Shown piece after piece: positions 6,693-43,464 of a DNA stretch of 51,075 bases. The notes under the pieces are model-generated. The model was not told the origin of the DNA and ran no database searches. It was given only the letters and a program-made list of their open reading frames with translations. The position numbers were made by a program, and so were the translations under genes. The stretch is from a phage. The stretch lies in the sequence record PZ871099.1. One strand, 5' to 3'. Numbering within the stretch: position 1 is the first letter of the stretch; the number at the start of each line of letters is the position of its first letter.

Positions 6693-6718
6693 CTAATAGC
6701 ATAAAAAAACATTGCACG

Positions 6719-6737
6719 TTTAACAAAAAGTGCTATC
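6719..6737 (-). promoter_or_regulatory. conserved intergenic motif copy (plus strand reads TTTAACAAAAAGTGCTAT)
   Basis: Upstream of the capsid gene. Confidence 0.5.
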
Positions 6738-10470: not shown

Positions 10471-10490
10471 TTTTAACAAAAAGTGCTATA
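10471..10490 (-). promoter_or_regulatory. conserved intergenic motif copy (plus strand reads TTTTAACAAAAAGTGCTATAAGGAG)
   Basis: Abuts the RBS of the tail chaperone gene; contains TGcTATAAG. Confidence 0.5.
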
Positions 10491-21736: not shown

Positions 21737-21787
21737 TACTCCTTAGTTGTTGTTGGCTGTAACTATACACGATCCGGCAAGCCGAGT

Positions 21788-21806
21788 TTAGCAAAAAGTG
21801 CTACTT
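21788..21806 (-). promoter_or_regulatory. conserved intergenic motif copy, degenerate
   Basis: Minus strand reads AGTAGCACTTTTTGCTAAAC, then TATAGT, upstream of the lipoprotein gene. Confidence 0.5.
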
Positions 21807-35678: not shown

Positions 35679-36074
35679 TCATGTGATATTGAATTTACGG
35701 CGCAGTGCTTCAAGATCTTGTCTATTAGCTTTTGCCTGGAACAATTCATCATCGCCCATCTCCCCTATTCTAGCCATATCCCTGATCCAGTCGTTGCGCA
35801 TACCATCCAGGCTATACAATTCGAATCCGAAAGGCCGCTTTGACGATCCTTTGGACCAGTATTTACCGCATACCCCATCTATATAGCCAGCCGTCATCAT
35901 TCTTGCGCAAAATTCCTTAGATGCAAGGCTGGCGAACATTCGCGGCGTAAGTCCGGCGGCACGTGCGAGCCGCTCGCATTCTCTATGCTGATAGATAAAT
36001 TTGGCTATGTGCTGCCTGTTAAACCAGTCGTATGACTCACACCATTTATACAGATCAAGCAAAAACATAATCAT
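35679..36074 (-). CDS. hypothetical protein (translationally coupled to upstream ATPase)
   Basis: 131 aa, ATGA overlap with the stop of 36071..37651. Confidence 0.4.
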   Translation of the reverse strand: MIMFLLDLYKWCESYDWFNRQHIAKFIYQHRECERLARAAGLTPRMFASLASKEFCARMMTAGYIDGVCGKYWSKGSSKRPFGFELYSLDGMRNDWIRDMARIGEMGDDELFQAKANRQDLEALRRKFNIT

Positions 36075-37651
36075 CCCAGCAGTATTGGATTTACAAAAAT
36101 AACACCATTAATCACACAAACATAATTTCTCTCTTCCAGCATTGGCAGCAAGTGCCCTTCTATCCTCTTCATTACGCCAGCTTGACCAACGAAAGGTTTT
36201 ACCTTTCTCGCTGATTCGTACAGGGCGCGGATATTCAGAATCCCTTTATTAGCCTTGCCGTGTCTAGTGATCAATTCAATCAATTTACCCATTTCAGCAT
36301 CATCACCAGCATAACCAGAAGCATTGGCGGCGCTAATGTATGTTTTGCTCAATTCCTGAAACATGATCAGCGCCTCTTGCATTGTTTCCACGTCGATCTC
36401 TTTCGACTTCTGCGGGTATCCAGCAGGATTAAACCAGTTGCGGATAACATGCAGGACGGAAGCAAGCCTGATCACCTGTTTATCCATTTTACCCAGCGCA
36501 CCGCGTAACATTGTATGAGAATACTTTCCGCCGTCTGCAAGATGCGGTTCCATATCCTGGCGAGCAATGTTGAGCACTCGCATAGCTGAACGGCTTATTT
36601 TCAGCGATACATTTGATTCGCTCATGATGTTATGCACCAATTGATAATATTGGGCCTTCAATTCAGAATCCACCGCCTCATAGGTAGAATCACCATTTTC
36701 ATCAATGAATGAGCGACGGCCTAAGAATGATTCCTCGCGGACCAACAAAAAGCGCTCACTAACACCGATACCGCGCGATCCAGCGTCCATGATTCCGCTT
36801 ATCGTTTCATCCTGGGCTATAACGCTCATACATCCAAGCGCGCGAAAACTCATGTTATTGTCAGCATTAGCACGGGCAATTGATACGTGACCATTATCCC
36901 ACGCCTTAAGCACTAGCTCACTGTTAGTCTTCCTTTCGCTATTTGCATAGGTCAAGCCTAACAAACTGTTAATACTTGTTGCTTCGTCAGATATTACGGC
37001 AAAGTTACCTTGCTTGTTGTTGATTTTCGCCAGGCCTTCTGGAGTTGTATCTGAAACAGGGAAAGTTATATCACACATCTTTTCCAGCTTCTCCTCCAGA
37101 TCCTCTTTTTCCTGGTATAGAGATTCCATATCAGCGCCTGATCTTTCGCTTTTCATCTCCTTTGCAAGACCTGCCAACTTTGCCTGTATTTTCTTTCTTT
37201 CCTTGCGGCGTTGCTCGTTGATCTTCTCAACTTCCGCAATCATCGGAGCAATAGCCATACTGTTGATCGCAGATTTACCAGTTGACGGCGGCTGGCTTGT
37301 AACGACGTAAAGCGCAGTCGGCTGATCGGTCCCGTGATAGTCAACCGTAAAGCGTCCAAGCATGGCGGCAGAAATGCAGCCGATAAAGTGCATGTAAGCC
37401 GATGATTCAGGGAATTGAACGGATCGCGCAATACTGCGTGATAACTTTCCGACAACATCAATATCATTACCAAGAGAAATTACGGGGTAGCGATCGTGAC
37501 CGCTATTTACATCTTTCACTTCGCCCCAAAAGCTGGACGACTGGCGATAGCCGTTAGCCTGAATTGATACGCGAACTGGCGAAAGGTTCTGGCTTTCAGC
37601 CATAGCGATTATTTGCTGTGGAGTTAATTTGTTCGTTTCTAATGAAAACAT
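36071..37651 (-). CDS. P-loop NTPase of unknown function
   Basis: 526 aa; Walker A QPPSTGKSA, Walker B-like FAVISDEA; family not assignable by eye. Confidence 0.5.
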   Translation of the reverse strand: MFSLETNKLTPQQIIAMAESQNLSPVRVSIQANGYRQSSSFWGEVKDVNSGHDRYPVISLGNDIDVVGKLSRSIARSVQFPESSAYMHFIGCISAAMLGRFTVDYHGTDQPTALYVVTSQPPSTGKSAINSMAIAPMIAEVEKINEQRRKERKKIQAKLAGLAKEMKSERSGADMESLYQEKEDLEEKLEKMCDITFPVSDTTPEGLAKINNKQGNFAVISDEATSINSLLGLTYANSERKTNSELVLKAWDNGHVSIARANADNNMSFRALGCMSVIAQDETISGIMDAGSRGIGVSERFLLVREESFLGRRSFIDENGDSTYEAVDSELKAQYYQLVHNIMSESNVSLKISRSAMRVLNIARQDMEPHLADGGKYSHTMLRGALGKMDKQVIRLASVLHVIRNWFNPAGYPQKSKEIDVETMQEALIMFQELSKTYISAANASGYAGDDAEMGKLIELITRHGKANKGILNIRALYESARKVKPFVGQAGVMKRIEGHLLPMLEERNYVCVINGVIFVNPILLG

Positions 37652-37704
37652 TCGTTAGCTTCTCCTTTGTGGGCCGTAAATTTTAACGGCCCAATACTAC
37701 CCCG

Positions 37705-37726
37705 TTTTGTCAAAAAGTGCTATTTG
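37705..37726 (-). promoter_or_regulatory. conserved intergenic motif copy (TTGACA variant)
   Basis: AAATAGCACTTTTTGACAAAAC, 22 nt, TAAAAT inside a hairpin; upstream of the ATPase gene. Confidence 0.6.
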
Positions 37727-37941
37727 ATCCGCTCTATTGCAACCAGAAGTCGATCAGGCTGGCGGTCGCTGTAGCATTCTCCTGTAATCCCATCCTTAAA
37801 CGTAAAGTAAAGCGCCTTATGATATGAAAAACCAATCAGCCAACCTACCGCCGTTTTTTTGATGGGCCTGACTATATCGCCAGGCTTGAAAGTCTTTGTG
37901 GTAGAATGCGTTACTTTGTAACGGTTTTCACTGTTTATCAC
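37720..37941 (-). CDS. hypothetical protein
   Basis: 73 aa. Confidence 0.3.
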   Translation of the reverse strand: MINSENRYKVTHSTTKTFKPGDIVRPIKKTAVGWLIGFSYHKALYFTFKDGITGECYSDRQPDRLLVAIERIK

Positions 37942-38324
37942 AGATATTTGCCCTCAAAAAGATAACAGCCGCCAGCAGAGAATCCGACCTCTTCACGGTA
38001 CAGGTTCCAGCGGTCGCCGCACTCATCAAAAACATAACCCGCAACGCTTCCAAGCGGTCGCCCTTTCTCGATCTGGTATCTCTTGCCCTGCTTAAAGTGC
38101 TTTTTGCACGGCATGTTATGATCTACAAACGTGCAAAGAACGGTTTTTGTGTTAATGGCGCGGTAATCATCTCGGTTTGCTGGAAGCCAGCGGCTACCCT
38201 TAACAAGCGTCTTAACCTGGAATTCTTCCACCTCGATCACATCATTACTTCCTGCAATCTTCTGATAAACCGTTTTAAAACGGCCTTTCATCAATACGTT
38301 GGTTTCATTACAGATAACATTCAT
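37938..38324 (-). CDS. hypothetical protein
   Basis: 128 aa; own motif copy, hairpin and CATAAT upstream. Confidence 0.35.
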   Translation of the reverse strand: MNVICNETNVLMKGRFKTVYQKIAGSNDVIEVEEFQVKTLVKGSRWLPANRDDYRAINTKTVLCTFVDHNMPCKKHFKQGKRYQIEKGRPLGSVAGYVFDECGDRWNLYREEVGFSAGGCYLFEGKYL

Positions 38325-38377
38325 GATCAGATCTCCTTTGTTTGTTCGATGTGATTATGCCAGGTTTTTACACCTGG

Positions 38378-38400
38378 CTTTTAACAAAAAGTGCTATTTT
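38378..38400 (-). promoter_or_regulatory. conserved intergenic motif copy
   Basis: Hairpin CCAGGTgtaaaaaCCTGG then CATAAT. Confidence 0.6.
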
Positions 38401-39110
38401 GAGTTTGACTCAAAGACGGCGCGAGCAAATCCGCGCGGAGTGAGGGAGCGGATCATCTTTGTGCGCGATGACTTGCCGCCAGTTTTGGCCCATCCTGGAT
38501 TATCTTTGTCTTCCTCTTTCGGCAGGATTAAAGCGCGCGGAGGAATAACAAAGCCGTTGCCAGTCCAGAGGCACGTTTTCTTAAAATAGCGATCCCGTGC
38601 CGGAATAATATCAGGGAAGTCGGGATGTTTATCATCTTCCGGCAGATAGCCAGCGTAATCGCACGGATGGAACGTATAATCAGGCTTTCGCCATAACGTT
38701 GACAACTTGCCAACCGGATTTTCGATCATGTAAGGAACACCGAAATAATCAGCTATATCAGCCGCGATTCTGCAAGTGTCGGCGGCCTCATCTTGGAACG
38801 ATGGATTCTCAAGGCGTTTTTTGGCCCAATGGCGAGATCCGCTATTTGCAAGGTCGGTGCATGGTGGGAAGGCCATAATAAAATCAGGATTGCCCCACTC
38901 ATTATTGATTGCCTTAACATAAAAAGCATCATCAATCCAGACGTTAACGTATTCGATATTCTCATGCTGTATGCGCACTGACTGGTAATCACCGTGATCG
39001 CCGCCGTCAGCATTAAAGCAAATGCACTTATAGCCATTATCAGCCCAATCTTTAACGGCCTTACCAGATCCATCAAATAGGGAGAATATTAAACCTTTAT
39101 ACATCGTCAT
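38394..39110 (-). CDS. compact DNA cytosine-C5 methyltransferase-like protein (putative)
   Basis: Motif I-like FSLFDGSG, motif IV-like AFPPCTD, motif VI-like IENPVG in the expected order; no obvious target recognition domain. Confidence 0.45.
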   Translation of the reverse strand: MTMYKGLIFSLFDGSGKAVKDWADNGYKCICFNADGGDHGDYQSVRIQHENIEYVNVWIDDAFYVKAINNEWGNPDFIMAFPPCTDLANSGSRHWAKKRLENPSFQDEAADTCRIAADIADYFGVPYMIENPVGKLSTLWRKPDYTFHPCDYAGYLPEDDKHPDFPDIIPARDRYFKKTCLWTGNGFVIPPRALILPKEEDKDNPGWAKTGGKSSRTKMIRSLTPRGFARAVFESNSK

Positions 39111-39114
39111 TACC

Positions 39115-39339
39115 TCAAAACGGAAAACAGCGCGCACAACCAGGATCGAAATCGCATCCACAATCATTAACAATCATAGTGGGATCTGCAAATATTGCGC
39201 TTGATTCAAGATCCATATCCATATCACCTAAAGCCTCATCAAGAGTCTTAATTTTATATGCCACTTCAAGCGCCGACTCTTTATTTAGTCCGGCATCTTC
39301 TGCCATTTGAAGGCGCTCAAAAAAACCGTCTTGACTCAT
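39115..39339 (-). CDS. hypothetical acidic protein with C-terminal Cys cluster
   Basis: 74 aa; CGCDFDPGCARC near the C-terminus. Confidence 0.3.
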   Translation of the reverse strand: MSQDGFFERLQMAEDAGLNKESALEVAYKIKTLDEALGDMDMDLESSAIFADPTMIVNDCGCDFDPGCARCFPF

Positions 39340-39450
39340 CGCATAATCCCCTTAATAACAGCCAAGATAATAGCCAGACCAGCAGCAGTAACCAAAAAAC
39401 CAACCGCGCCAATAATAGAATAAAAAAAGAAATCAATAGCTTTATCTATC
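39337..39450 (-). CDS. small hydrophobic protein (single transmembrane helix, putative)
   Basis: 37-aa ORF MIDKAIDFFFYSIIGAVGFLVTAAGLAIILAVIKGIMR, not in the track; stop overlaps next ATG. Confidence 0.3.
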
Positions 39451-39494
39451 ATTTTCCACCTCATTTAAAAGGCGGCAAAACGCCGCCAGATTAA

Positions 39495-39722
39495 TTAAAG
39501 AGCGCGCCAACTTTGAATATAGAAAGCGTTTTCTTCCAGTAATTCTTTTACCTGATCTTTATTGTATTTGCGCACCTTACCGCCTGGATGGATACCAATA
39601 AGATAGCCTCCTTTGCCCTCGGTGATAGTGATTTGGCTAATTCCGCAGGACTTATCAAGTTTTACAGCCACGCGGTGATGAGCGTCAATAGTTGCCATAA
39701 TGTTTAAAACTTTTGCTTTCAT
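39495..39722 (-). CDS. hypothetical protein
   Basis: 75 aa. Confidence 0.3.
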   Translation of the reverse strand: MKAKVLNIMATIDAHHRVAVKLDKSCGISQITITEGKGGYLIGIHPGGKVRKYNKDQVKELLEENAFYIQSWRAL

Positions 39723-39830
39723 TTAAATATCCTCAATTGAAATATGAATGACGTGGCGCTCTTTTTCCGTCGCCGCCGTAATGGTCATTTGCAACCGCCA
39801 CCATCCAGGCATTTTTGAAAATAAATAGCC

Positions 39831-40043
39831 TCATTTCTTATTTTTCAGCTTAAATTTATGACCTGGAACACCAGCGCCAATATAGCCATCGTTGTATTCC
39901 ATCAAATAAAGGTGAAGACCATTATCTGAAATTACATGAGGATCTTCTTTGAGATTTCCCATTAGTGGATATTCTTTTCCGCGCGTAAATTTCCAAATTG
40001 AGTTATAAGTTTCTACGCATTTAAGTTTTAATTGCTTTGCCAT
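39831..40043 (-). CDS. hypothetical protein
   Basis: 70 aa. Confidence 0.3.
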   Translation of the reverse strand: MAKQLKLKCVETYNSIWKFTRGKEYPLMGNLKEDPHVISDNGLHLYLMEYNDGYIGAGVPGHKFKLKNKK

Positions 40044-40240
40044 TAAATGATCTCCATGTATGTTTCAAAGCCATTTAACTTGAACAGGCCGTTTTCACAT
40101 TTGCGCACGTTCCAAGTTAGCCCTGAGTGGTACGCATCCATATCATCAAGGTCAATGGTGATTTCAGCGCCTTTCTTAAACAAACCTTTTTCGTGAGACT
40201 TGTCGCGCTTAACAACTTTAACATCAACTTGATTTTCCAT
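40043..40240 (-). CDS. hypothetical protein
   Basis: 65 aa; motif copy and conserved leader upstream. Confidence 0.35.
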   Translation of the reverse strand: MENQVDVKVVKRDKSHEKGLFKKGAEITIDLDDMDAYHSGLTWNVRKCENGLFKLNGFETYMEII

Positions 40241-40295
40241 CTTTAAATCCTAGTTCGTTGTCGATGGGTGTAATATACCATTCAGGCGCACATCG

Positions 40296-40316
40296 TTTTT
40301 AACAAAAAGTGCTATT
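40296..40316 (-). promoter_or_regulatory. conserved intergenic motif copy
   Basis: 22 nt then TATATT, then conserved leader ACACCCATCGACAACGAA. Confidence 0.6.
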
Positions 40317-40602
40317 CAACAACTTTTCCAGTTAAAGAGATAAGTTGCCTTGTAATCTTGTGGCGGCGATACTTACGCGCAACAACAGGAAGGCTTTCAC
40401 CGCTTTGATGACCAAAGCAGATCGGCAATTCACCTTCAATGGAGCGGAAGCCACCAAATTCAAGATCCCGCACTGGCTTAGCGCGCCAGGCTTCAATAAA
40501 TCCGCGCTCGTCACGAGTGATGTAGCGGTATATGTTCGGGAGGGGCAATTGTATCCCCTCAAAATCCACGGTATCGGTATAGCTATAAAACTTAGAACTC
40601 AT
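40312..40602 (-). CDS. hypothetical protein
   Basis: Start trimmed to MSSKFYS. Confidence 0.3.
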   Translation of the reverse strand: MSSKFYSYTDTVDFEGIQLPLPNIYRYITRDERGFIEAWRAKPVRDLEFGGFRSIEGELPICFGHQSGESLPVVARKYRRHKITRQLISLTGKVVE

Positions 40603-40744
40603 AGTCAACAACTCCAAACTCGTTAACGATTTGCGCCTTATAGAAGCCACCATTTTTCGCCAGGTTGTAACAAGCGGCTACGGTTTCAAATTCGCGCGCT
40701 TCCGGCTGGCTGTTTTCGTGTTCCCAGGTAATCAGAGTAACCAT
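40592..40744 (-). CDS. hypothetical small protein
   Basis: About 50 aa ORF (MVTLITWEHENSQPEAREFETVAACYNLAKNGGFYKAQIVNEFGVVDYEF) not in the track; sits after the 40802 motif copy and conserved leader. Confidence 0.3.
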   Translation of the reverse strand: MVTLITWEHENSQPEAREFETVAACYNLAKNGGFYKAQIVNEFGVVDYEF

Positions 40745-40800
40745 TTTCAAATCCTCGCATTCGTTGTCGATGCGTGTAATGTACAGGAATGCGAGGATTG

Positions 40801-40823
40801 AGTTTTAACAAAAAGTGCTATTT
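40801..40823 (-). promoter_or_regulatory. conserved intergenic motif copy
   Basis: 22 nt then TACATT, then leader ACACGCATCGACAACGAA. Confidence 0.6.
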
Positions 40824-41085
40824 AGTCCAGGAATTCGATTTCACGCTCGCCAGTTAACGGATCCACAAGCCAGAATCCGAGCGGTTCGCCGTGAACACCG
40901 CCATAGAATCCAAGCGCCGTCAGATCTTCACCTTTAACGAATACCAGGTTTCCGCTACGGCTTACGTGAGACACGTTAACGATAACCGGAAATGTGCGAT
41001 CCTTAAATGCGGGCCGCAGGGCGTAACATCCGTTATTGAGCAAACGTGCTTTGCGCTTAACTGGAATAGGTGCATTAATTTTCAT
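40822..41085 (-). CDS. hypothetical protein
   Basis: 87 aa. Confidence 0.3.
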   Translation of the reverse strand: MKINAPIPVKRKARLLNNGCYALRPAFKDRTFPVIVNVSHVSRSGNLVFVKGEDLTALGFYGGVHGEPLGFWLVDPLTGEREIEFLD

Positions 41086-41097
41086 GGTTATTACTCC

Positions 41098-41310
41098 TTA
41101 TCGTAAAGATTTAAAGACGTATAGTTTATTGCGGTAACTATATATCCGCATTGTTATTTCCCGCAGTGCAATATATTCCTTCCTGTTTTCCGGCATCCTG
41201 GCGAGCAATAACAGGCAGTATTTATAAGCGCGGTCAAGATTCCTTTCCGTGCCCCTGCAATATCCCTTGTTGCGCCTGGAGCGGTACAGCAATAACAATT
41301 TCTTGAACAT
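41098..41310 (-). CDS. hypothetical basic protein
   Basis: Start trimmed to MFKKLLLL, 2 nt after upstream stop. Confidence 0.25.
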   Translation of the reverse strand: MFKKLLLLYRSRRNKGYCRGTERNLDRAYKYCLLLLARMPENRKEYIALREITMRIYSYRNKLYVFKSLR

Positions 41311-41311
41311 T

Positions 41312-41521
41312 TCAGATACGCCCATACAGATCACAGACTTCGTTGATAAAATTGCTTTGCGCCCCTTTGTTGTCACGCTCAAGAATTGCGCGGCATTCAA
41401 ACTTATGATTATGCACGATGACTACAACCATGTTTTCAGGCATTGAGCGGTTATAGCGTTGCGCATCACTGATTGAAACGTCCATACCCATTTCATGTGC
41501 CTTCTTGATCACATCCAACAT
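41312..41521 (-). CDS. hypothetical protein (paralog of 41509..41775)
   Basis: Shares FINEVCDLYG vs FINDVCLLQ with neighbour; RBS AGGAGA. Confidence 0.35.
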   Translation of the reverse strand: MLDVIKKAHEMGMDVSISDAQRYNRSMPENMVVVIVHNHKFECRAILERDNKGAQSNFINEVCDLYGRI

Positions 41522-41775
41522 TTTTTCTTCTCCTGCAATAAGCAAACATCATTGATAAAATCAGCACGGCCCTTAATGTTGCTGATGTGGAACGTCTTTT
41601 CAGCGTACAGGCCATCACCTTCAATCACGATCATTACGCGAGTCGGTTTATTCACGGGCGCACATGAAAAGAGTGGGCGCGCCGGAAGAAATTTAGTAGC
41701 CACATCCAGGTTAGCCCTGGCGGCCCTGCAAAACGCCTCCGCCAGATCCAAATCATTTTCGGTAATCACCGCCAT
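41509..41775 (-). CDS. hypothetical protein (paralog of 41312..41521)
   Basis: 88 aa. Confidence 0.35.
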   Translation of the reverse strand: MAVITENDLDLAEAFCRAARANLDVATKFLPARPLFSCAPVNKPTRVMIVIEGDGLYAEKTFHISNIKGRADFINDVCLLQEKKKCWM

Positions 41776-42047
41776 TACTTCTTGATCTCCTCACTGATAA
41801 ATTTCAGCACCTGACGCAAGAAAACCTCGTTGTTGATAGTCGCTGGCAATTCTTCTTTCACTTCTTGCGGCAGATAGATATTGCCGTGCCAGGTCAAGCA
41901 ATCGTAGTTGATACGATAAGAGCAAAGCCACTCGCAATCGTTATCTGCTTCCCAAATGCAGAGTTGCAGAACATCGCCGAAGTCTTCAACAGTCAGATCC
42001 AGACCGTGACGCTTAGCGAAGTTGAAAGTGGTTTTGCTGATGTTCAT
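41775..42047 (-). CDS. hypothetical protein
   Basis: 90 aa; first gene after the 42106 motif copy. Confidence 0.35.
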   Translation of the reverse strand: MNISKTTFNFAKRHGLDLTVEDFGDVLQLCIWEADNDCEWLCSYRINYDCLTWHGNIYLPQEVKEELPATINNEVFLRQVLKFISEEIKK

Positions 42048-42105
42048 TGCTATCTCCTGAGCGGTTCGTTTCGATGTGTGTAATGTACCCGATCAGACGG
42101 CCTGA

Positions 42106-42127
42106 GTTTTAACAAAAAGTGCTATTT
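42106..42127 (-). promoter_or_regulatory. conserved intergenic motif copy
   Basis: 22 nt then TACATT, then leader ACACACATCGAAACGAA. Confidence 0.6.
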
Positions 42128-42149
42128 GACGGTTAGCGCCAGGATTGCG

Positions 42150-42250
42150 ATCGAAATAATCAAAAGTAATCATTCGTAATCAAATCACGTCAAAATGATG
42201 ATTGCCTTTGCAAATTTGATGAGAAAAGTAATCACGTTTAATCATTGGTT
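42150..42250. repeat. iteron-like array of TAATCA repeats
   Basis: AATAATCAAAAGTAATCATTCGTAATCAAATCACG ... AAAGTAATCACGTTTAATCATTGG; five copies spaced about 10 bp. Confidence 0.5.
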
Positions 42251-42399
42251 GCAGGGGAGATAGTGAAACCCTCCCCTCTTGCCTCACTTTTCCGCCTGGC
42301 TGTCAGTGGTTGTTGTCTTTTGTTCACCCCTGTTACCGATTTCAGGCGGCGTGTTTCCGCGCGGTTTTCCGGTGTAGCGAAAACGGAAAAAACAAAGAA

Positions 42400-42680
42400 A
42401 ATCCTCTATAATACATTGAAAATAAAGATTATTTATTTATATATATCTATAATGTTTTCTTTTTGTTCTCACTGTTACAGTGCTTTTTGTTGGTTATGGT
42501 GTGGTTGTGTGTGGGCATATATGGATAGTTGCGCGCGCGGCGGATTGCATATGTATATATACTTTTTCCGGCGGATTGCGTTAACAGCGTGAACAGAAAA
42601 ATAACAGCCCTGAAATCAACAACTTGCGCATGATTTTGTAGTTTTTCGATATTGGTAACGTTTTGAATACAACAAAAACA
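42400..42680. repeat. GT/AT-rich non-coding module, copy B
   Basis: Same blocks in the same order as copy A; spurious ORF 42245..42592 overlaps it. Confidence 0.6.
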
Positions 42681-42708
42681 TTGACACGCACCAAATAGCT
42701 TTTATAAT
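42681..42708 (+). promoter_or_regulatory. canonical sigma70 promoter (TTGACA-16-TATAAT)
   Basis: Read directly; start of the plus-strand early cluster; track ATG at 42707 lies in the -10 box so the gene start is placed at 42740. Confidence 0.65.
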
Positions 42709-42739: not shown

Positions 42740-43204
42740 ATGGAACAGAAAACCACTAAGGACTATTGCGATTGGCTTCGCGAGCTTGGTCGCCGCCTGG
42801 CTAGTGGCGATATTGAAGAGTATAAAATGTCACTAATTGACCTGGCCGGAATGTTAAGCGGTGACGACTGCTACAAGATCACGCGCAGTTCATCCTACAG
42901 CCGGACCATTATCAACCGCGTTCCAGAAGTAAGGGCCGCAGGTCGGGTAAGCATCAAGGTAGAGGAAACGGAAGATGATAAATTTTACGTTTTCCGCATG
43001 GTCCGCGAATCGAAAAGGAAAATCATCACACCCGAAGAATTGCCAGCCATCAAGGCAAGGGCGATCAAAAAGTTTGCCGATCGCTTACTGGCAGCAATCC
43101 CGAACATCGTGGACCTGGAAGGGGATAAACTGGCTGGAGCTTGTGAGGGCGTAAGCCGCTACCAGGATATGATCCGAGAAATCATCAAAGAGGAGGAGCA
43201 ATAA
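42740..43204 (+). CDS. hypothetical early protein
   Basis: RBS GGAGGAAAGG before ATG 42740. Confidence 0.35.
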   Translation: MEQKTTKDYCDWLRELGRRLASGDIEEYKMSLIDLAGMLSGDDCYKITRSSSYSRTIINRVPEVRAAGRVSIKVEETEDDKFYVFRMVRESKRKIITPEELPAIKARAIKKFADRLLAAIPNIVDLEGDKLAGACEGVSRYQDMIREIIKEEEQ

Positions 43205-43464
43205 TGAAAAAGGCATTAATCGGCGTTTTGGCGGCAATGACACTCCTGACCGGATGCGAAAAGGCATCAGAATCAACTGTTGTCGTAGGCGTGGAGTCAG
43301 ATTTCAAAGTCGGCCGCCTGTTCACTGTTGACGGATGCACAGCATACAGATTCTATGATAACGGTCGCGCGATCTATTACACCAACTGCAAAGGCGCAAC
43401 GGATAGCACGTACAACAGCGGAAAGAACGTAATGCACCAGCAAGTCACAACAGATATTAAATAG
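43204..43464 (+). CDS. lipoprotein (putative)
   Basis: Signal peptide with lipobox LTGC (MKKALIGVLAAMTLLTGCEK). Confidence 0.5.
   Translation: MKKALIGVLAAMTLLTGCEKASESTVVVGVESDFKVGRLFTVDGCTAYRFYDNGRAIYYTNCKGATDSTYNSGKNVMHQQVTTDIK

What the first reader, a model, noticed from the sequence alone, without database searches (positions are those of the whole stretch)
37720..42047. Minus-strand cluster of about 14 small genes, most with their own element copy: likely host-takeover or anti-defence region
Almost every gene or gene pair here has its own element, hairpin and -10 box. The cluster includes a paralog pair (41312..41521 and 41509..41775), an acidic protein with a CGCDFDPGCARC cluster, a hidden 37-aa transmembrane peptide (39337..39450) and a hidden 50-aa ORF (40592..40744). 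None has a recognisable function. This is the typical layout of phage early regions that encode host-takeover and anti-defence proteins.
Basis: inference. Interest (0 to 1): 0.6.

Follow-up and report, generated by a model that had tools for sequence, protein, structure and literature searches.

The report
T1-like phage early accessory gene arm
This is the leftward arm of small, mostly uncharacterised genes in a T1-like coliphage (genus Warwickvirus), built from swappable promoter-headed cassettes and probably expressed early; it holds a DNA methyltransferase and a homologue of a known immune trigger, so it is an ordinary kind of phage region but a good place to look for counter-defence genes.

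Summary
The window is a complete Warwickvirus genome (Drexlerviridae), 96-98% identical here to phages tonijn, SECphi27 and FritzSarasin/Bas04.

**Observation, partly confirmed.**
- The minus-strand cluster has 16 genes, not about 14. Substitutions against relatives fall mainly at codon position 3, the coding pattern; differences are few for the genus-restricted genes.
- Only four copies of the repeated element serve the cluster, and a fifth heads the helicase gene. The transcription units hold 5, 2, 7 and 2 genes.
- The g2/g3 paralogy is weak.
- "None has a recognisable function" is wrong:
  - g14 is a Dcm-like C5 methyltransferase.
  - g8 belongs to Pfam family Gp54, "phage antiviral trigger protein". 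It differs by one residue from the SECphi27 homologue, which does not activate the CapRelSJ46 defence protein.
  - g6 belongs to Pfam family DUF7170.

**Interpretation, partly supported.**
- Gene content is highly variable between close relatives.
- Cassette junctions lie inside the elements, as with the PeSL promoter-terminator motifs of T4-type phages.
- The orthologous element in Bas11 sits just upstream of gene 54, whose native promoter drives expression in uninfected cells.
- Deletions of gene 54 and nearby genes in Bas11 are viable.
- Bas04 and Bas05, both Warwickviruses, are unusually restriction-resistant for unknown reasons.
- No anti-defence activity is shown for any open reading frame.

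**Verdict:** a new member of a known kind; moderate-to-low interest.

The parts
42065..42126 (-). Element copy E1, heading unit 1 (g1-g5). 20-mer AATAGCACTTTTTGTTAAAA at 42107-42126; -10-like TACATT at 42082-42087; then CACACATCGAAACGAA.
   Evidence: No significant hairpin (z +0.45).
41775..42047 (-). g1, 90 aa, acidic (pI 4.7), 4 Cys. First gene of the arm; unknown function.
   Evidence: phrog_6147, E=3e-44. Present in Tempevirinae and ESP2949-1. Codon-position substitutions 2/2/19 against G29-2.
41509..41775 (-). g2, 88 aa; found only in Warwickvirus; unknown function.
   Evidence: No family hit. Found in 65 phage records, all at least 90% identical. Present in Bas04 and Bas05.
41312..41521 (-). 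g3, 69 aa; restricted to Warwickvirus. Possible distant paralog of g2 through a shared C-terminal motif, (D/N)FIN(D/E)VC.
   Evidence: blastp E=0.004, 24% identity over 34 aa; phmmer E about 0.01. Intact in Bas05. A 1-nt deletion in Bas04 shifts it into the g4 frame.
41098..41310 (-). g4, 70 aa, very basic (pI 10.4); Warwickvirus only and absent from Bas05.
   Evidence: Codon-position substitutions 1/1/3 to 1/1/5.
40822..41085 (-). g5, 87 aa; unknown function. Its stop codon TAA is the start of element E2.
   Evidence: phrog_9595, E=5e-15. A homologue in T1 lies on the other arm (ST71 region).
40761..40822 (-). Element copy E2, heading unit 2 (g6-g7). -10-like TACATT at 40778-40783. A long stem (core CCTCGCATTC / GAATGCGAGG) encloses the -10 box.
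   Evidence: Fold z = -5.5. In Bas05 the deletion junction lies inside this element.
40592..40744 (-). g6, 50 aa, acidic; Pfam DUF7170. A widely mobile small gene.
   Evidence: PF23776, E=2.8e-28. Found in 464 phage records, including T4-like and large Vibrio phages. It is 90-92% identical in sampled Klebsiella phages; in TAH8, a Klebsiella Webervirus, the helicase is only 63% identical. Absent from Bas04, Bas05, tunzivis and SECphi27.
40312..40602 (-). g7, 96 aa, basic; overlaps the end of g6. Unknown function; not a supported helix-turn-helix protein.
   Evidence: phrog_1972, E=2e-15. HTH_38 scores only 13.9 bits against a cutoff of 27. The family profile has no PDB match.
40255..40316 (-). 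Element copy E3, heading unit 3 (g8-g14). -10-like TATATT at 40272-40277, preceded by TGG. Orthologous to the element upstream of Bas11 gene 54.
   Evidence: No significant hairpin (z -0.1).
40043..40240 (-). g8, 65 aa; Gp54 family (the Bas11 member is a six-stranded beta-barrel). Homologue of the CapRelSJ46 trigger Gp54 of Bas11; probably a non-activating variant.
   Evidence: PF25180, E=3.6e-38, 129.6 bits against a cutoff of 27. PDB 9axb/9erv, E=5.6e-17. One residue different from the SECphi27 homologue, which is inactive on CapRelSJ46. Found in 215 phage records.
39831..40043 (-). g9, 70 aa, basic; essentially Warwickvirus only. Related to the N-terminal half of bas04_0057.
   Evidence: Found in 70 records. 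blastp against bas04_0057 gives E=1.8e-5. No profile link to the Gp54 family.
39733..39834 (-). g10, 33 aa; ATGA overlap with the stop of g9.
   Evidence: phrog_32259, E=1e-19. Codon-position substitutions 0/1/6, summed over three relatives.
39495..39722 (-). g11, 75 aa, basic. Found across much of Drexlerviridae (T1 ST5); unknown function.
   Evidence: phrog_4344. Found in 685 phage records. Only 27 cluster representatives out of 1.84 billion proteins match.
39471..39487 (-). Intrinsic-terminator-like hairpin GGCGGCGTTTTGCCGCC followed by TTTT, inside unit 3 and without an element.
   Evidence: fold z = -3.0.
39336..39452 (-). g12, 38-aa single-pass membrane peptide (42 aa from the upstream ATG at 39464); Warwickvirus only. 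ATGA overlap with g13.
   Evidence: GRAVY 1.30. Annotated as bas04_0051. Codon-position substitutions 7/0/13, summed over three relatives.
39115..39339 (-). g13, 74 aa, acidic (pI 4.05). Conserved helical N-terminus, an acidic linker and a C-terminal CGCxFDPxCxRC knuckle.
   Evidence: phrog_9323, E=1e-36. Found in 450 records. T1 ST6 shares only the N-terminal 62% and has an acidic tail in place of the Cys cluster. AF2 pLDDT 65.
38394..39110 (-). g14, 238-aa Dcm-like C5-cytosine DNA methyltransferase, an orphan with no partner endonuclease.
   Evidence: phrog_757 DNA methyltransferase, E=1e-85. Annotated as Dcm-like in Bas04, Bas05 and Bas11. Motifs FDGSG, PPCT and ENP are visible in the sequence. 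Weak alignment to DNMT3B motifs I and IV. No Pfam or NCBIfam hit.
38337..38398 (-). Element copy E4, heading unit 4 (g15-g16). Hairpin GCCAGGTGTAAAAACCTGGC in the spacer, whose last base is the first of the -10-like CATAAT (38354-38359).
   Evidence: Fold z = -3.2. The matching intergenic position downstream of the methyltransferase is annotated as a terminator in G29-2.
37938..38324 (-). g15, 128 aa, all-beta. Variable N-terminal domain plus a C-terminal domain of about 70 aa found in every Drexlerviridae genome sampled (T1 ST7).
37720..37941 (-). g16, 73 aa, GTG start, basic; found in Tempevirinae.
   Evidence: phrog_12725, E=6e-8. Codon-position substitutions 6/2/23 against G29-2.
37663..37724 (-). 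Element copy E5 (TTGACA variant), heading the DUF3987 helicase gene 36071-37651. An 8-bp stem encloses the -10-like TAAAAT (37680-37685).
   Evidence: Fold z = -2.8.

Best explanation
The region is the leftward, probably early, accessory-gene arm of a Warwickvirus (T1-like) genome.

**Layout.** Sixteen real protein genes are organised in four transcription units. Each unit is headed by a conserved module of about 60 nt:
- the 20-mer AATAGCACTTTTTGTTAAAA, which usually contains the stop codon of the preceding gene;
- a variable spacer, often a hairpin;
- a G at -14;
- a TATAAT-like -10 box.

**How it works.** Host RNA polymerase reads these modules without phage factors (inferred from Bas11). 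Expression early after DNA entry is expected but not shown. The hairpins probably terminate or stabilise upstream transcripts (inferred).

**Recombination.** The modules also act as short homology sites where cassettes are gained, lost and swapped between related phages (shown by junction sequences).

**Cargo.**
- A semi-conserved backbone of g11, g13, the C5 methyltransferase g14, g15 and g16, running into the replication helicase.
- Fast-turnover cassettes: g2-g4, g6-g7, g9 and g12.
- g8 is intermediate: a Gp54-family beta-barrel found in about a quarter of helicase-bearing records.

**Likely roles.**
- The methyltransferase most likely protects phage DNA from restriction.
- The small proteins most likely bind host or rival-phage targets, for counter-defence or takeover.
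- g8 belongs to a family that one host defence protein (CapRelSJ46) has learned to sense.
- The individual targets remain unknown.
For: **Identity and synteny.** The region is 96-98% identical to tonijn, Bas04 and others. The order small genes, then methyltransferase, then two genes, then the DUF3987 helicase is shared with Bas11 and G29-2. T1, SH6 and TAH8 keep the small genes and the helicase but not the methyltransferase at that position.

**Real genes.** Third-position substitution bias in the genes with enough differences to judge; PHROG or Pfam hits for 12 of 16.

**Element.**
- 19 copies against 0.01 expected, and 11 copies in T1.
- In 85 unique copies from 14 genomes there is a fixed distance to G-14 (82%) and to a T64/A88/T69/A64/A52/T88 hexamer.
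- The Bas11 copy lies immediately upstream of gene 54. The native promoter drives Gp54-Flag from pBR322 in uninfected MG1655, and escape mutations just upstream reduce expression (PMC11578894).

**Accessory character.**
- Presence/absence matrix.
- Record counts: helicase 907, g11 685, g6 464, g13 450, g8 215, g9 70, g2 65.
- Cassette junctions lie inside the elements in Bas05, tunzivis and Bas04.
- Deletions of gene 54 and nearby genes in Bas11 are viable.

**Functions.** g14 is a methyltransferase. g8 is a Gp54-family member.

**Phenotypic context.** Bas04 and Bas05, both Warwickviruses, are the restriction-resistant exceptions among the BASEL Drexlerviridae, for "unknown factors" (PMC8594841).
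Against: - No transcript data for any Drexlerviridae phage were found, so early timing is inferred.
- The geometry of the element is not a canonical sigma-70 promoter. TTGTTA lies 22 nt from the -10 box, and the consensus scan did not call it. A factor-dependent or weak promoter is therefore possible.
- I could not check how much upstream DNA the Bas11 plasmid construct carried.
- No ORF matches a characterised anti-defence protein, and no anti-defence HMM library was available.
- g11, g13 and g15 are conserved across much of the family, which fits core functions better than arms-race functions.
- Bas04 and Bas05 are restricted by many type I CBASS operons.
- The link between restriction resistance and the genus rests on a single clade, and genes specific to Warwickvirus elsewhere in the genome were not surveyed.
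Confidence: 0.68

Rival explanations
1. The conserved part of the cluster (g11, g13, g15, perhaps g16 and g1) is not arms-race cargo. It encodes small accessory factors for phage DNA replication or recombination, or for shutting off the host, co-transcribed with the DUF3987 helicase. Only the variable cassettes would be true accessory genes.
For: - g11 is found in 685 and g13 in 450 of about 907 helicase-bearing records.
- The C-terminal domain of g15 is present in every Drexlerviridae genome sampled, including T1, TR3, C119 and TAH8, always just upstream of the helicase.
- All are transcribed in the same direction as the helicase, and the units abut.
Against: - There is no similarity to any replication protein in Pfam, NCBIfam or PDB.
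- The fold of g15 is a generic small beta-barrel.
- Bas11 tolerates large deletions around gene 54, although their extent is not known to me.
- g13 is absent from TAH8, TR3 and C119.
Confidence: 0.25
2. The small genes mainly serve competition between phages, through superinfection exclusion or defence carried by the phage, rather than counter-defence against the host. An example would be the g12 membrane peptide blocking DNA entry.
For: - g12 is a single-pass membrane peptide.
- T1-like phages are known to carry the Cor exclusion lipoprotein (PMC13164509).
- Accessory regions of phages often mix defence and counter-defence genes (10.1101/2023.04.06.535777).
Against: - No PADLOC defence model matches any of the 16 proteins.
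- Most of the proteins are soluble and tiny.
- These are strictly lytic phages, for which exclusion genes are fewer.
Confidence: 0.12
3. Several of the short ORFs (g4, g6, g10, g12) are chance reading frames, and the region is partly non-coding regulatory DNA.
For: - They are 33-70 aa long.
- g4 and g12 have no family hit.
- Annotations differ between records.
Against: - Substitutions against relatives are biased to codon position 3 in each of them, although the differences are few.
- g6 matches Pfam DUF7170 and g10 matches phrog_32259 at E<1e-19.
- Stops and starts are tightly coupled, with Shine-Dalgarno sequences.
Confidence: 0.03

Closest known systems
Hyperplastic regions of T4-type phages with PeSL (promoter-early stem-loop) composite promoter/terminator motifs (Arbiol et al. 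2010, PMC2839356; Comeau et al. 2014, PMC4122927)
   Same: - Arrays of small ORFs of unknown function.
- A short conserved promoter motif with an adjacent stem-loop, repeated between the ORFs.
- Insertions, deletions and swaps between close relatives whose junctions fall inside the motifs.
   Different: - The sequence is unrelated and the phage family is different (siphovirus, about 51 kb).
- The geometry differs: a 20-mer centred near -41.5, G-14 and a -10 box, with no canonical -35.
- Only 3 of the 5 local copies have a significant hairpin.
- Units hold up to 7 genes rather than 1 or 2.
- Recombination is inferred from junctions, not observed.
The gene 54 region of phage Bas11 (JohannLBurckhardt), which encodes Gp54, a direct activator of the CapRelSJ46 defence protein (Zhang et al. 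2024, PMC11578894; PDB 9axb, 9erv)
   Same: - It is the orthologous locus: the same arm, the same element upstream, and the same downstream order (g11-like, g13-like, Dcm-like methyltransferase, two genes, helicase).
- g8 is a full-length Gp54-family member.
   Different: - g8 is only about 53% identical to Gp54 of Bas11. It has V7 and A25 where A7 and I25 are needed for activation.
- It differs by one residue from the SECphi27 homologue, which does not activate CapRelSJ46.
- The window's arm has 16 genes against 9 in Bas11.
Phage accessory regions enriched in counter-defence genes (Silas et al., 10.1101/2023.04.06.535777). The early regions of T7 (Ocr) and T5 (pre-early genes) are further examples, cited from general knowledge.
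   Same: Small, fast-evolving genes that move horizontally and that limited evidence suggests are dispensable, sitting between conserved anchors and probably expressed early.
   Different: No gene here has a demonstrated counter-defence activity, and none is homologous to Ocr, Ral, Abc2, Gam or similar proteins (no hits).
acr-aca operons (an anti-CRISPR gene followed by a helix-turn-helix autorepressor)
   Same: The g6-g7 cassette is a small acidic protein followed by an overlapping basic protein, behind a strong promoter-like element, and it is mobile between phages.
   Different: The helix-turn-helix call for g7 is below threshold and is not borne out by its family profile. There is no link to any CRISPR system.

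Membership tests
Gp54 family (Pfam PF25180, 'Phage antiviral trigger protein Gp54'): g8 | Full-length match to the family HMM above the gathering score | tested here: met
   129.6 bits against a cutoff of 27; E=3.6e-38; residues 1-65 on profile positions 1-65 of 65.
Gp54 family: g8 | Sequence homology to the crystallised Gp54 of Bas11 (six-stranded beta-barrel) | tested here: met
   PDB 9axb/9erv, E=5.6e-17, end-to-end alignment. About 53% identity by tblastn.
Gp54 family: g8 | Same genomic position as Bas11 gene 54 (leftward arm, behind an element copy) | tested here: met
Gp54 family: g8 | Direct activation of CapRelSJ46 | not testable with these tools
   The literature points to no. The SECphi27 homologue, one residue different from g8, is inactive, and the A7V and I25V changes abolish activation. 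g8 has V7 and A25.
C5-cytosine DNA methyltransferase (Dcm-like): g14 | Catalytic motifs I (FxGxG), IV (PC) and VI (ENV) | tested here: met
   FDGSG, PPCT and ENP can be read in the translation. Motifs I and IV align weakly to DNMT3B (E=0.6).
C5-cytosine DNA methyltransferase: g14 | Match to a curated methyltransferase family model | tested here: inconclusive
   PHROG 757 'DNA methyltransferase', E=1e-85, but no Pfam or NCBIfam hit at E<=0.1 and 0.05.
C5-cytosine DNA methyltransferase: g14 | 5mC methylation of a defined motif in phage DNA | not testable with these tools
   Needs methylome sequencing of virion DNA.
PeSL-type composite promoter/terminator shuffling cassettes | A conserved promoter motif repeated between small ORFs of a variable region | tested here: met
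PeSL-type cassettes | An adjacent stem-loop or terminator | tested here: inconclusive
   Significant in 3 of the 5 local copies. The matching intergenic position in G29-2 is annotated as a terminator.
PeSL-type cassettes | Insertion, deletion and swap junctions between close relatives fall inside the motif | tested here: met
   Junctions in Bas05, tunzivis and Bas04.
PeSL-type cassettes | Sequence homology to the T4-type PeSL consensus | not tested
   The phage family and promoter layout are different. I treat this as an analogy, not as membership.
Known anti-defence proteins or anti-defence loci | Homology of any ORF to a characterised anti-defence protein | tested here: not met
   Nothing in Pfam, NCBIfam, PHROGs functional categories or PDB apart from the methyltransferase. 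No dedicated anti-defence library was available.
Known anti-defence loci (acr-aca type) | An adjacent helix-turn-helix regulator | tested here: not met
   g7 scores 13.9 bits for HTH_38 against a cutoff of 27. The family alignment and profile give no helix-turn-helix support.
Known anti-defence loci | Suppression of a defence system when expressed | not testable with these tools
   Requires experiment.
DUF7170 (Pfam PF23776): g6 | Full-length match above the gathering score | tested here: met
   98.2 bits against a cutoff of 27; residues 1-50 on profile positions 1-50 of 52.

The most novel reading that the evidence does not exclude
One or more of the cassette genes found only in Warwickvirus and shared by Bas04 and Bas05 (g2, g9 or the g12 membrane peptide), possibly acting together with the C5 methyltransferase, would be the "unknown factor" that makes this genus broadly resistant to restriction-modification systems. 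[quoted passage not shown] In parallel, the 60-nt promoter/terminator element would be a PeSL-like recombination module that I did not find described for T1-like phages, spreading such genes between them.
Probability: 0.2. Interest if true: 0.6.

Novelty: new member of a known kind. Interest (0 to 1): 0.35.

Why it matters
- **A short candidate list for an open question.** The BASEL authors asked why Bas04 and Bas05 resist restriction when their relatives do not. The candidates here are g2, g9, g12 and the allele of the methyltransferase.
- **Context for the Gp54 family.** The CapRelSJ46-trigger family sits inside a swappable, promoter-headed cassette system. That may explain how phages can lose or replace a sensed protein.
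- **A shared solution in unrelated phages.** T1-like phages seem to use short conserved promoter/terminator modules both as expression signals and as recombination sites. This is the same solution seen in T4-type phages.
- **What it does not change.** None of this alters current understanding of phage early regions, and no new mechanism is shown.

Tried and rejected
- **g6-g7 as an acr-aca-like pair.** The helix-turn-helix call for g7 is below threshold and unsupported. Rejected.
- **g13 as a fold-recognisable DNA mimic or zinc protein.** AF2 gave pLDDT 65 and pTM 0.35, too poor for a fold search. There is no PDB match by sequence or profile. Left open.
- **Defence cargo.** No PADLOC hits.
- **Non-coding RNA.** No Rfam family matches at a meaningful score.
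- **The element as a canonical sigma-70 promoter.** The consensus scan did not call it, and the TTGTTA to -10 spacing is 22 nt.
- **Literature searches.**
  - The element sequence: no papers.
  - Drexlerviridae transcriptomes: none found.
  - Classic work on T1 escape from restriction: not in the library.
  - T1-like entries in the accessory-gene screen of Silas et al.: none.
- **FritzSarasin 140-aa "fusion" (bas04_0060).** It results from a 1-nt deletion inside g3, not from a genuine longer gene.

Full report
**What the window is.** The 4.3-kb region is 96-98% identical to Escherichia phages tonijn, vB_Eco-B1.2, vB_EcoS-95 and FritzSarasin (Bas04). It has 240 matching phage records. These phages are Drexlerviridae, subfamily Tempevirinae, genus Warwickvirus. 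The window begins with the two ORFs that occupy the positions of the T1 terminase small and large subunit genes, so it looks like a complete genome of 51 kb (the ORFs themselves were not family-searched). The finding lies between a 580-bp non-coding divergent region (42127-42706) and the DUF3987 replicative helicase (36071-37651). In the T1 map this corresponds to genes ST1-ST9 at the right genome end.

**Checking the observation.**
- *Gene count.* Reading the minus strand with the ORF list gives 16 co-directional genes, g1 to g16; coordinates are in the parts list. Most abut or overlap (TAATG, ATGA).
- *Coding evidence.*
  - Differences from relatives fall mainly at codon position 3 wherever there are enough of them to judge, for example g1 2/2/19 and g13 6/6/32.
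  - The short ORFs show the same bias on fewer differences: g6 0/1/8, g10 0/1/6 and g12 7/0/13.
  - g3 shows no clear bias (8/7/12). Twelve of the 16 have a PHROG or Pfam family. I take all 16 as genes, with weaker support for the genus-restricted ones.
- *Confirmed details.* The 50-aa ORF, the membrane peptide (38 aa from the start with a Shine-Dalgarno sequence) and the acidic Cys-cluster protein are as described. All three are already annotated in GenBank relatives.
- *Element copies.*
  - The repeated 20-mer AATAGCACTTTTTGTTAAAA occurs 19 times in the window (0.01 expected) and 11 times in T1.
  - Only four copies head units inside the cluster, with a fifth before the helicase.
  - The units hold 5 genes (g1-g5), 2 (g6-g7), 7 (g8-g14, with an internal terminator-like hairpin at 39471-39487) and 2 (g15-g16). 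"Almost every gene or gene pair has its own element" is therefore overstated.
- *Hairpins.* They are significant in three of the five copies (z -5.5, -3.2, -2.8) and absent from two.
- *Paralogy.* The g2/g3 relationship rests on 24% identity over 34 residues (E=0.004; about 0.01 by phmmer).
- *Recognisable functions.* "None has a recognisable function" is wrong on three counts.
  - g14 is a 238-aa Dcm-like C5 methyltransferase: PHROG 757, E=1e-85; motifs FDGSG, PPCT, ENP; annotated as such in Bas04, Bas05 and Bas11.
  - g8 is a full-length member of Pfam PF25180, "Phage antiviral trigger protein Gp54" (E=3.6e-38; PDB 9axb/9erv, E=5.6e-17).
  - g6 belongs to Pfam DUF7170.

**What the element is.**
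- *Geometry.*
  - Across 85 unique copies from 14 genomes the layout is fixed: the 20-mer, 17 variable nt, G (82%) at the position equivalent to -14, then a T64/A88/T69/A64/A52/T88 hexamer, then a loosely conserved CA.C.AAAC.A before the ribosome-binding site.
  - TTGTTA lies 22 nt from the -10 box, so this is not a canonical -35/-10 promoter, and the consensus scan did not report it.
  - The 20-mer is centred near -41.5.
- *Stop codons.* The stop codon of the upstream gene is usually embedded in the 20-mer.
- *Evidence that it works as a promoter.* In Bas11 (JohannLBurckhardt) a copy sits immediately upstream of gene 54. Zhang et al. (PMC11578894) report three relevant results:
  - escape mutations "immediately upstream" of gene 54 lower its expression;
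  - that is the best available evidence that host RNA polymerase uses these elements without phage factors, which is consistent with early expression. I could not verify how much upstream DNA that construct carried, and I found no Drexlerviridae transcriptome.
- *Terminator annotation.* The annotators of G29-2 called a terminator in the intergenic position that corresponds to E4. The module therefore behaves as a composite terminator/promoter.

**Accessory character.**
- *Presence/absence in 13 relatives (tblastn).*
  - g2, g3, g4, g9 and g12 occur only in Warwickvirus.
  - g4 is missing from Bas05, and g3 is frameshifted in Bas04.
  - g6-g7 are absent from Bas04, Bas05, tunzivis and SECphi27 but present in B1.2 and in the Hanrivervirus G29-2.
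  - Bas04 and SECphi27 carry a different two-gene cassette in that slot.
  - Bas04 has an extra gene after g8.
  - Bas05 has an HNH-like gene inserted and a methyltransferase allele only 45% identical.
- *Genes on the other arm.* Homologues of g6 (in Bas11) and of g5 (in T1) lie on the opposite arm.
- *Record counts in the 50,697-record phage collection.* Helicase 907, g11 685, g6 464, g13 450, g8 215, g9 70, g2 65.
- *Mobility of g6.* It also occurs in T4-like and 112-kb Vibrio phages. It is 90-92% identical in sampled Klebsiella phages, whereas the helicase of the Webervirus TAH8 is only 63% identical, which points to horizontal spread.
- *Cassette junctions.* They fall inside the elements.
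  - In Bas05 the g6-type spacer and -10 box are joined directly to the ribosome-binding site of g8.
  - In tunzivis the stop of g5 and the 20-mer are joined to a g8-type spacer.
  - In Bas04 the alternative cassette is bracketed by two element copies.
- *Closest parallel.* This is the behaviour described for PeSL motifs in the hyperplastic regions of T4-type phages (PMC2839356, PMC4122927).
- *Dispensability.* Bas11 escape clones with large deletions of gene 54 and nearby genes are viable.

**What the proteins are.**
- *g8.* It is about 53% identical to Gp54 of Bas11. That protein is a 66-aa six-stranded beta-barrel of unknown native function that binds and activates CapRelSJ46.
  - g8 differs by one residue (D35E) from the SECphi27 homologue, which does not activate CapRelSJ46.
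  - It carries V7 and A25 where A7 and I25 are required.
  - Bas04 escapes CapRelSJ46 through its capsid allele, which again implies that its Gp54 homologue (98% identical to g8) is silent.
- *g14.* It is an orphan methyltransferase, and self-methylation against restriction is the obvious role. The BASEL authors, however, found no simple link between methyltransferase content and restriction resistance.
- *g13.* It has a conserved helical N-terminus, an acidic linker and a C-terminal Cys knuckle. In T1 the knuckle is replaced by an acidic tail. Its model is too poor to search.
- *g11.* Its family has only 27 cluster representatives among 1.84 billion proteins.
- *g7.* It is not a supported helix-turn-helix protein.
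- *Negative searches.* No protein hits PADLOC or NCBIfam, and no Rfam family is present.

**Phenotypic context.**
- Both are Warwickviruses. The genes specific to this genus that both share in this arm (g2, g9, g12) and the methyltransferase are therefore reasonable candidates.
- This is one clade, though, and I did not survey the rest of the genome.
- Against a broad anti-defence role, Bas04 and Bas05 are restricted by many type I CBASS operons and escape through prohead-protease mutations.

**Conclusion.**
The gene count, the element density and the "no recognisable function" statement need correction.
- The interpretation as an early accessory or counter-defence region is plausible. It is supported for "accessory, swappable, host-polymerase-driven", while "early" is inferred and dispensability is shown only for gene 54 and nearby genes in Bas11.
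- Anti-defence activity is not shown for any individual ORF. The conserved g11, g13 and g15 backbone may have core roles.
- In kind this is a known type of phage region. The specific leads are the PeSL-like use of the Drexlerviridae element, the placement of the Gp54 family in that system, and a short candidate list for restriction resistance in Warwickvirus.

Noticed in passing
window 42127-42706: A 580-bp non-coding divergent region lies between the two arms of small genes. It contains a perfect sigma-70 consensus promoter (TTGACA-16-TATAAT, 42681-42708, + strand) for the rightward arm. It also has two 21-nt direct repeats, AAAAGTAATCA..TAATCA (42162-42182 and 42224-42244), and AT-rich tracts. 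By position it corresponds to the T1 genome ends and terminal-repeat boundary, so it may hold pac or other cis sites.
   Followed up: partly
window 6718-6737 (-), 10471-10490 (-), 21786-21805 (-): Element copies lie on the minus strand inside, or at the edge of, the plus-strand structural gene block. The first two would drive antisense transcription into head and tail genes.
   Followed up: no
window 43204-43464 (+): An 86-aa ORF starts MKKALIGVLAAMTLLTGC, a lipoprotein signal with a lipobox. It lies just after the first gene of the rightward arm and may be a membrane or exclusion function. It was not tested against Cor or Llp.
   Followed up: no
L001 6881-7303 (FritzSarasin bas04_0060): The annotated 140-aa protein is an artefact of a 1-nt deletion in g3, which runs into the g4 frame. 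g3 is intact in Bas05, B1.2 and tunzivis, so it is either a pseudogene or a sequencing error in Bas04.
   Followed up: yes
L013 10895-11422 (PeterMerian bas05_0051): A 175-aa HNH/AP2-like homing-endonuclease-type gene is inserted between the g13 homologue and the methyltransferase. The methyltransferase allele there is only 45% identical to the one in the window.
   Followed up: partly
phage collection hits H35, H124 and others: About 20 GenBank records named "Campylobacter phage" (for example A127 and A118) carry a helicase 88% identical and a g11 homologue 64% identical to this coliphage. They look like T1-like coliphage genomes, and the host labels may be wrong or reflect contamination.
   Followed up: no
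window 40592-40744 (g6) and hits H105-H112: The DUF7170 protein is 90-92% identical in sampled Klebsiella phages, whereas the helicase of the Klebsiella Webervirus TAH8 is only 63% identical. It also occurs in a 164-kb T4-like phage and a 112-kb Vibrio phage. It is a promiscuously transferred 50-aa gene.
   Followed up: partly
JLBYU phage records (H8, H26-H28): Homologues of these small ORFs are annotated there as phosphoglucomutase, thiol:disulfide interchange protein and polyribonucleotide nucleotidyltransferase. These names are implausible for proteins of 65-128 aa and are likely annotation artefacts.
   Followed up: no
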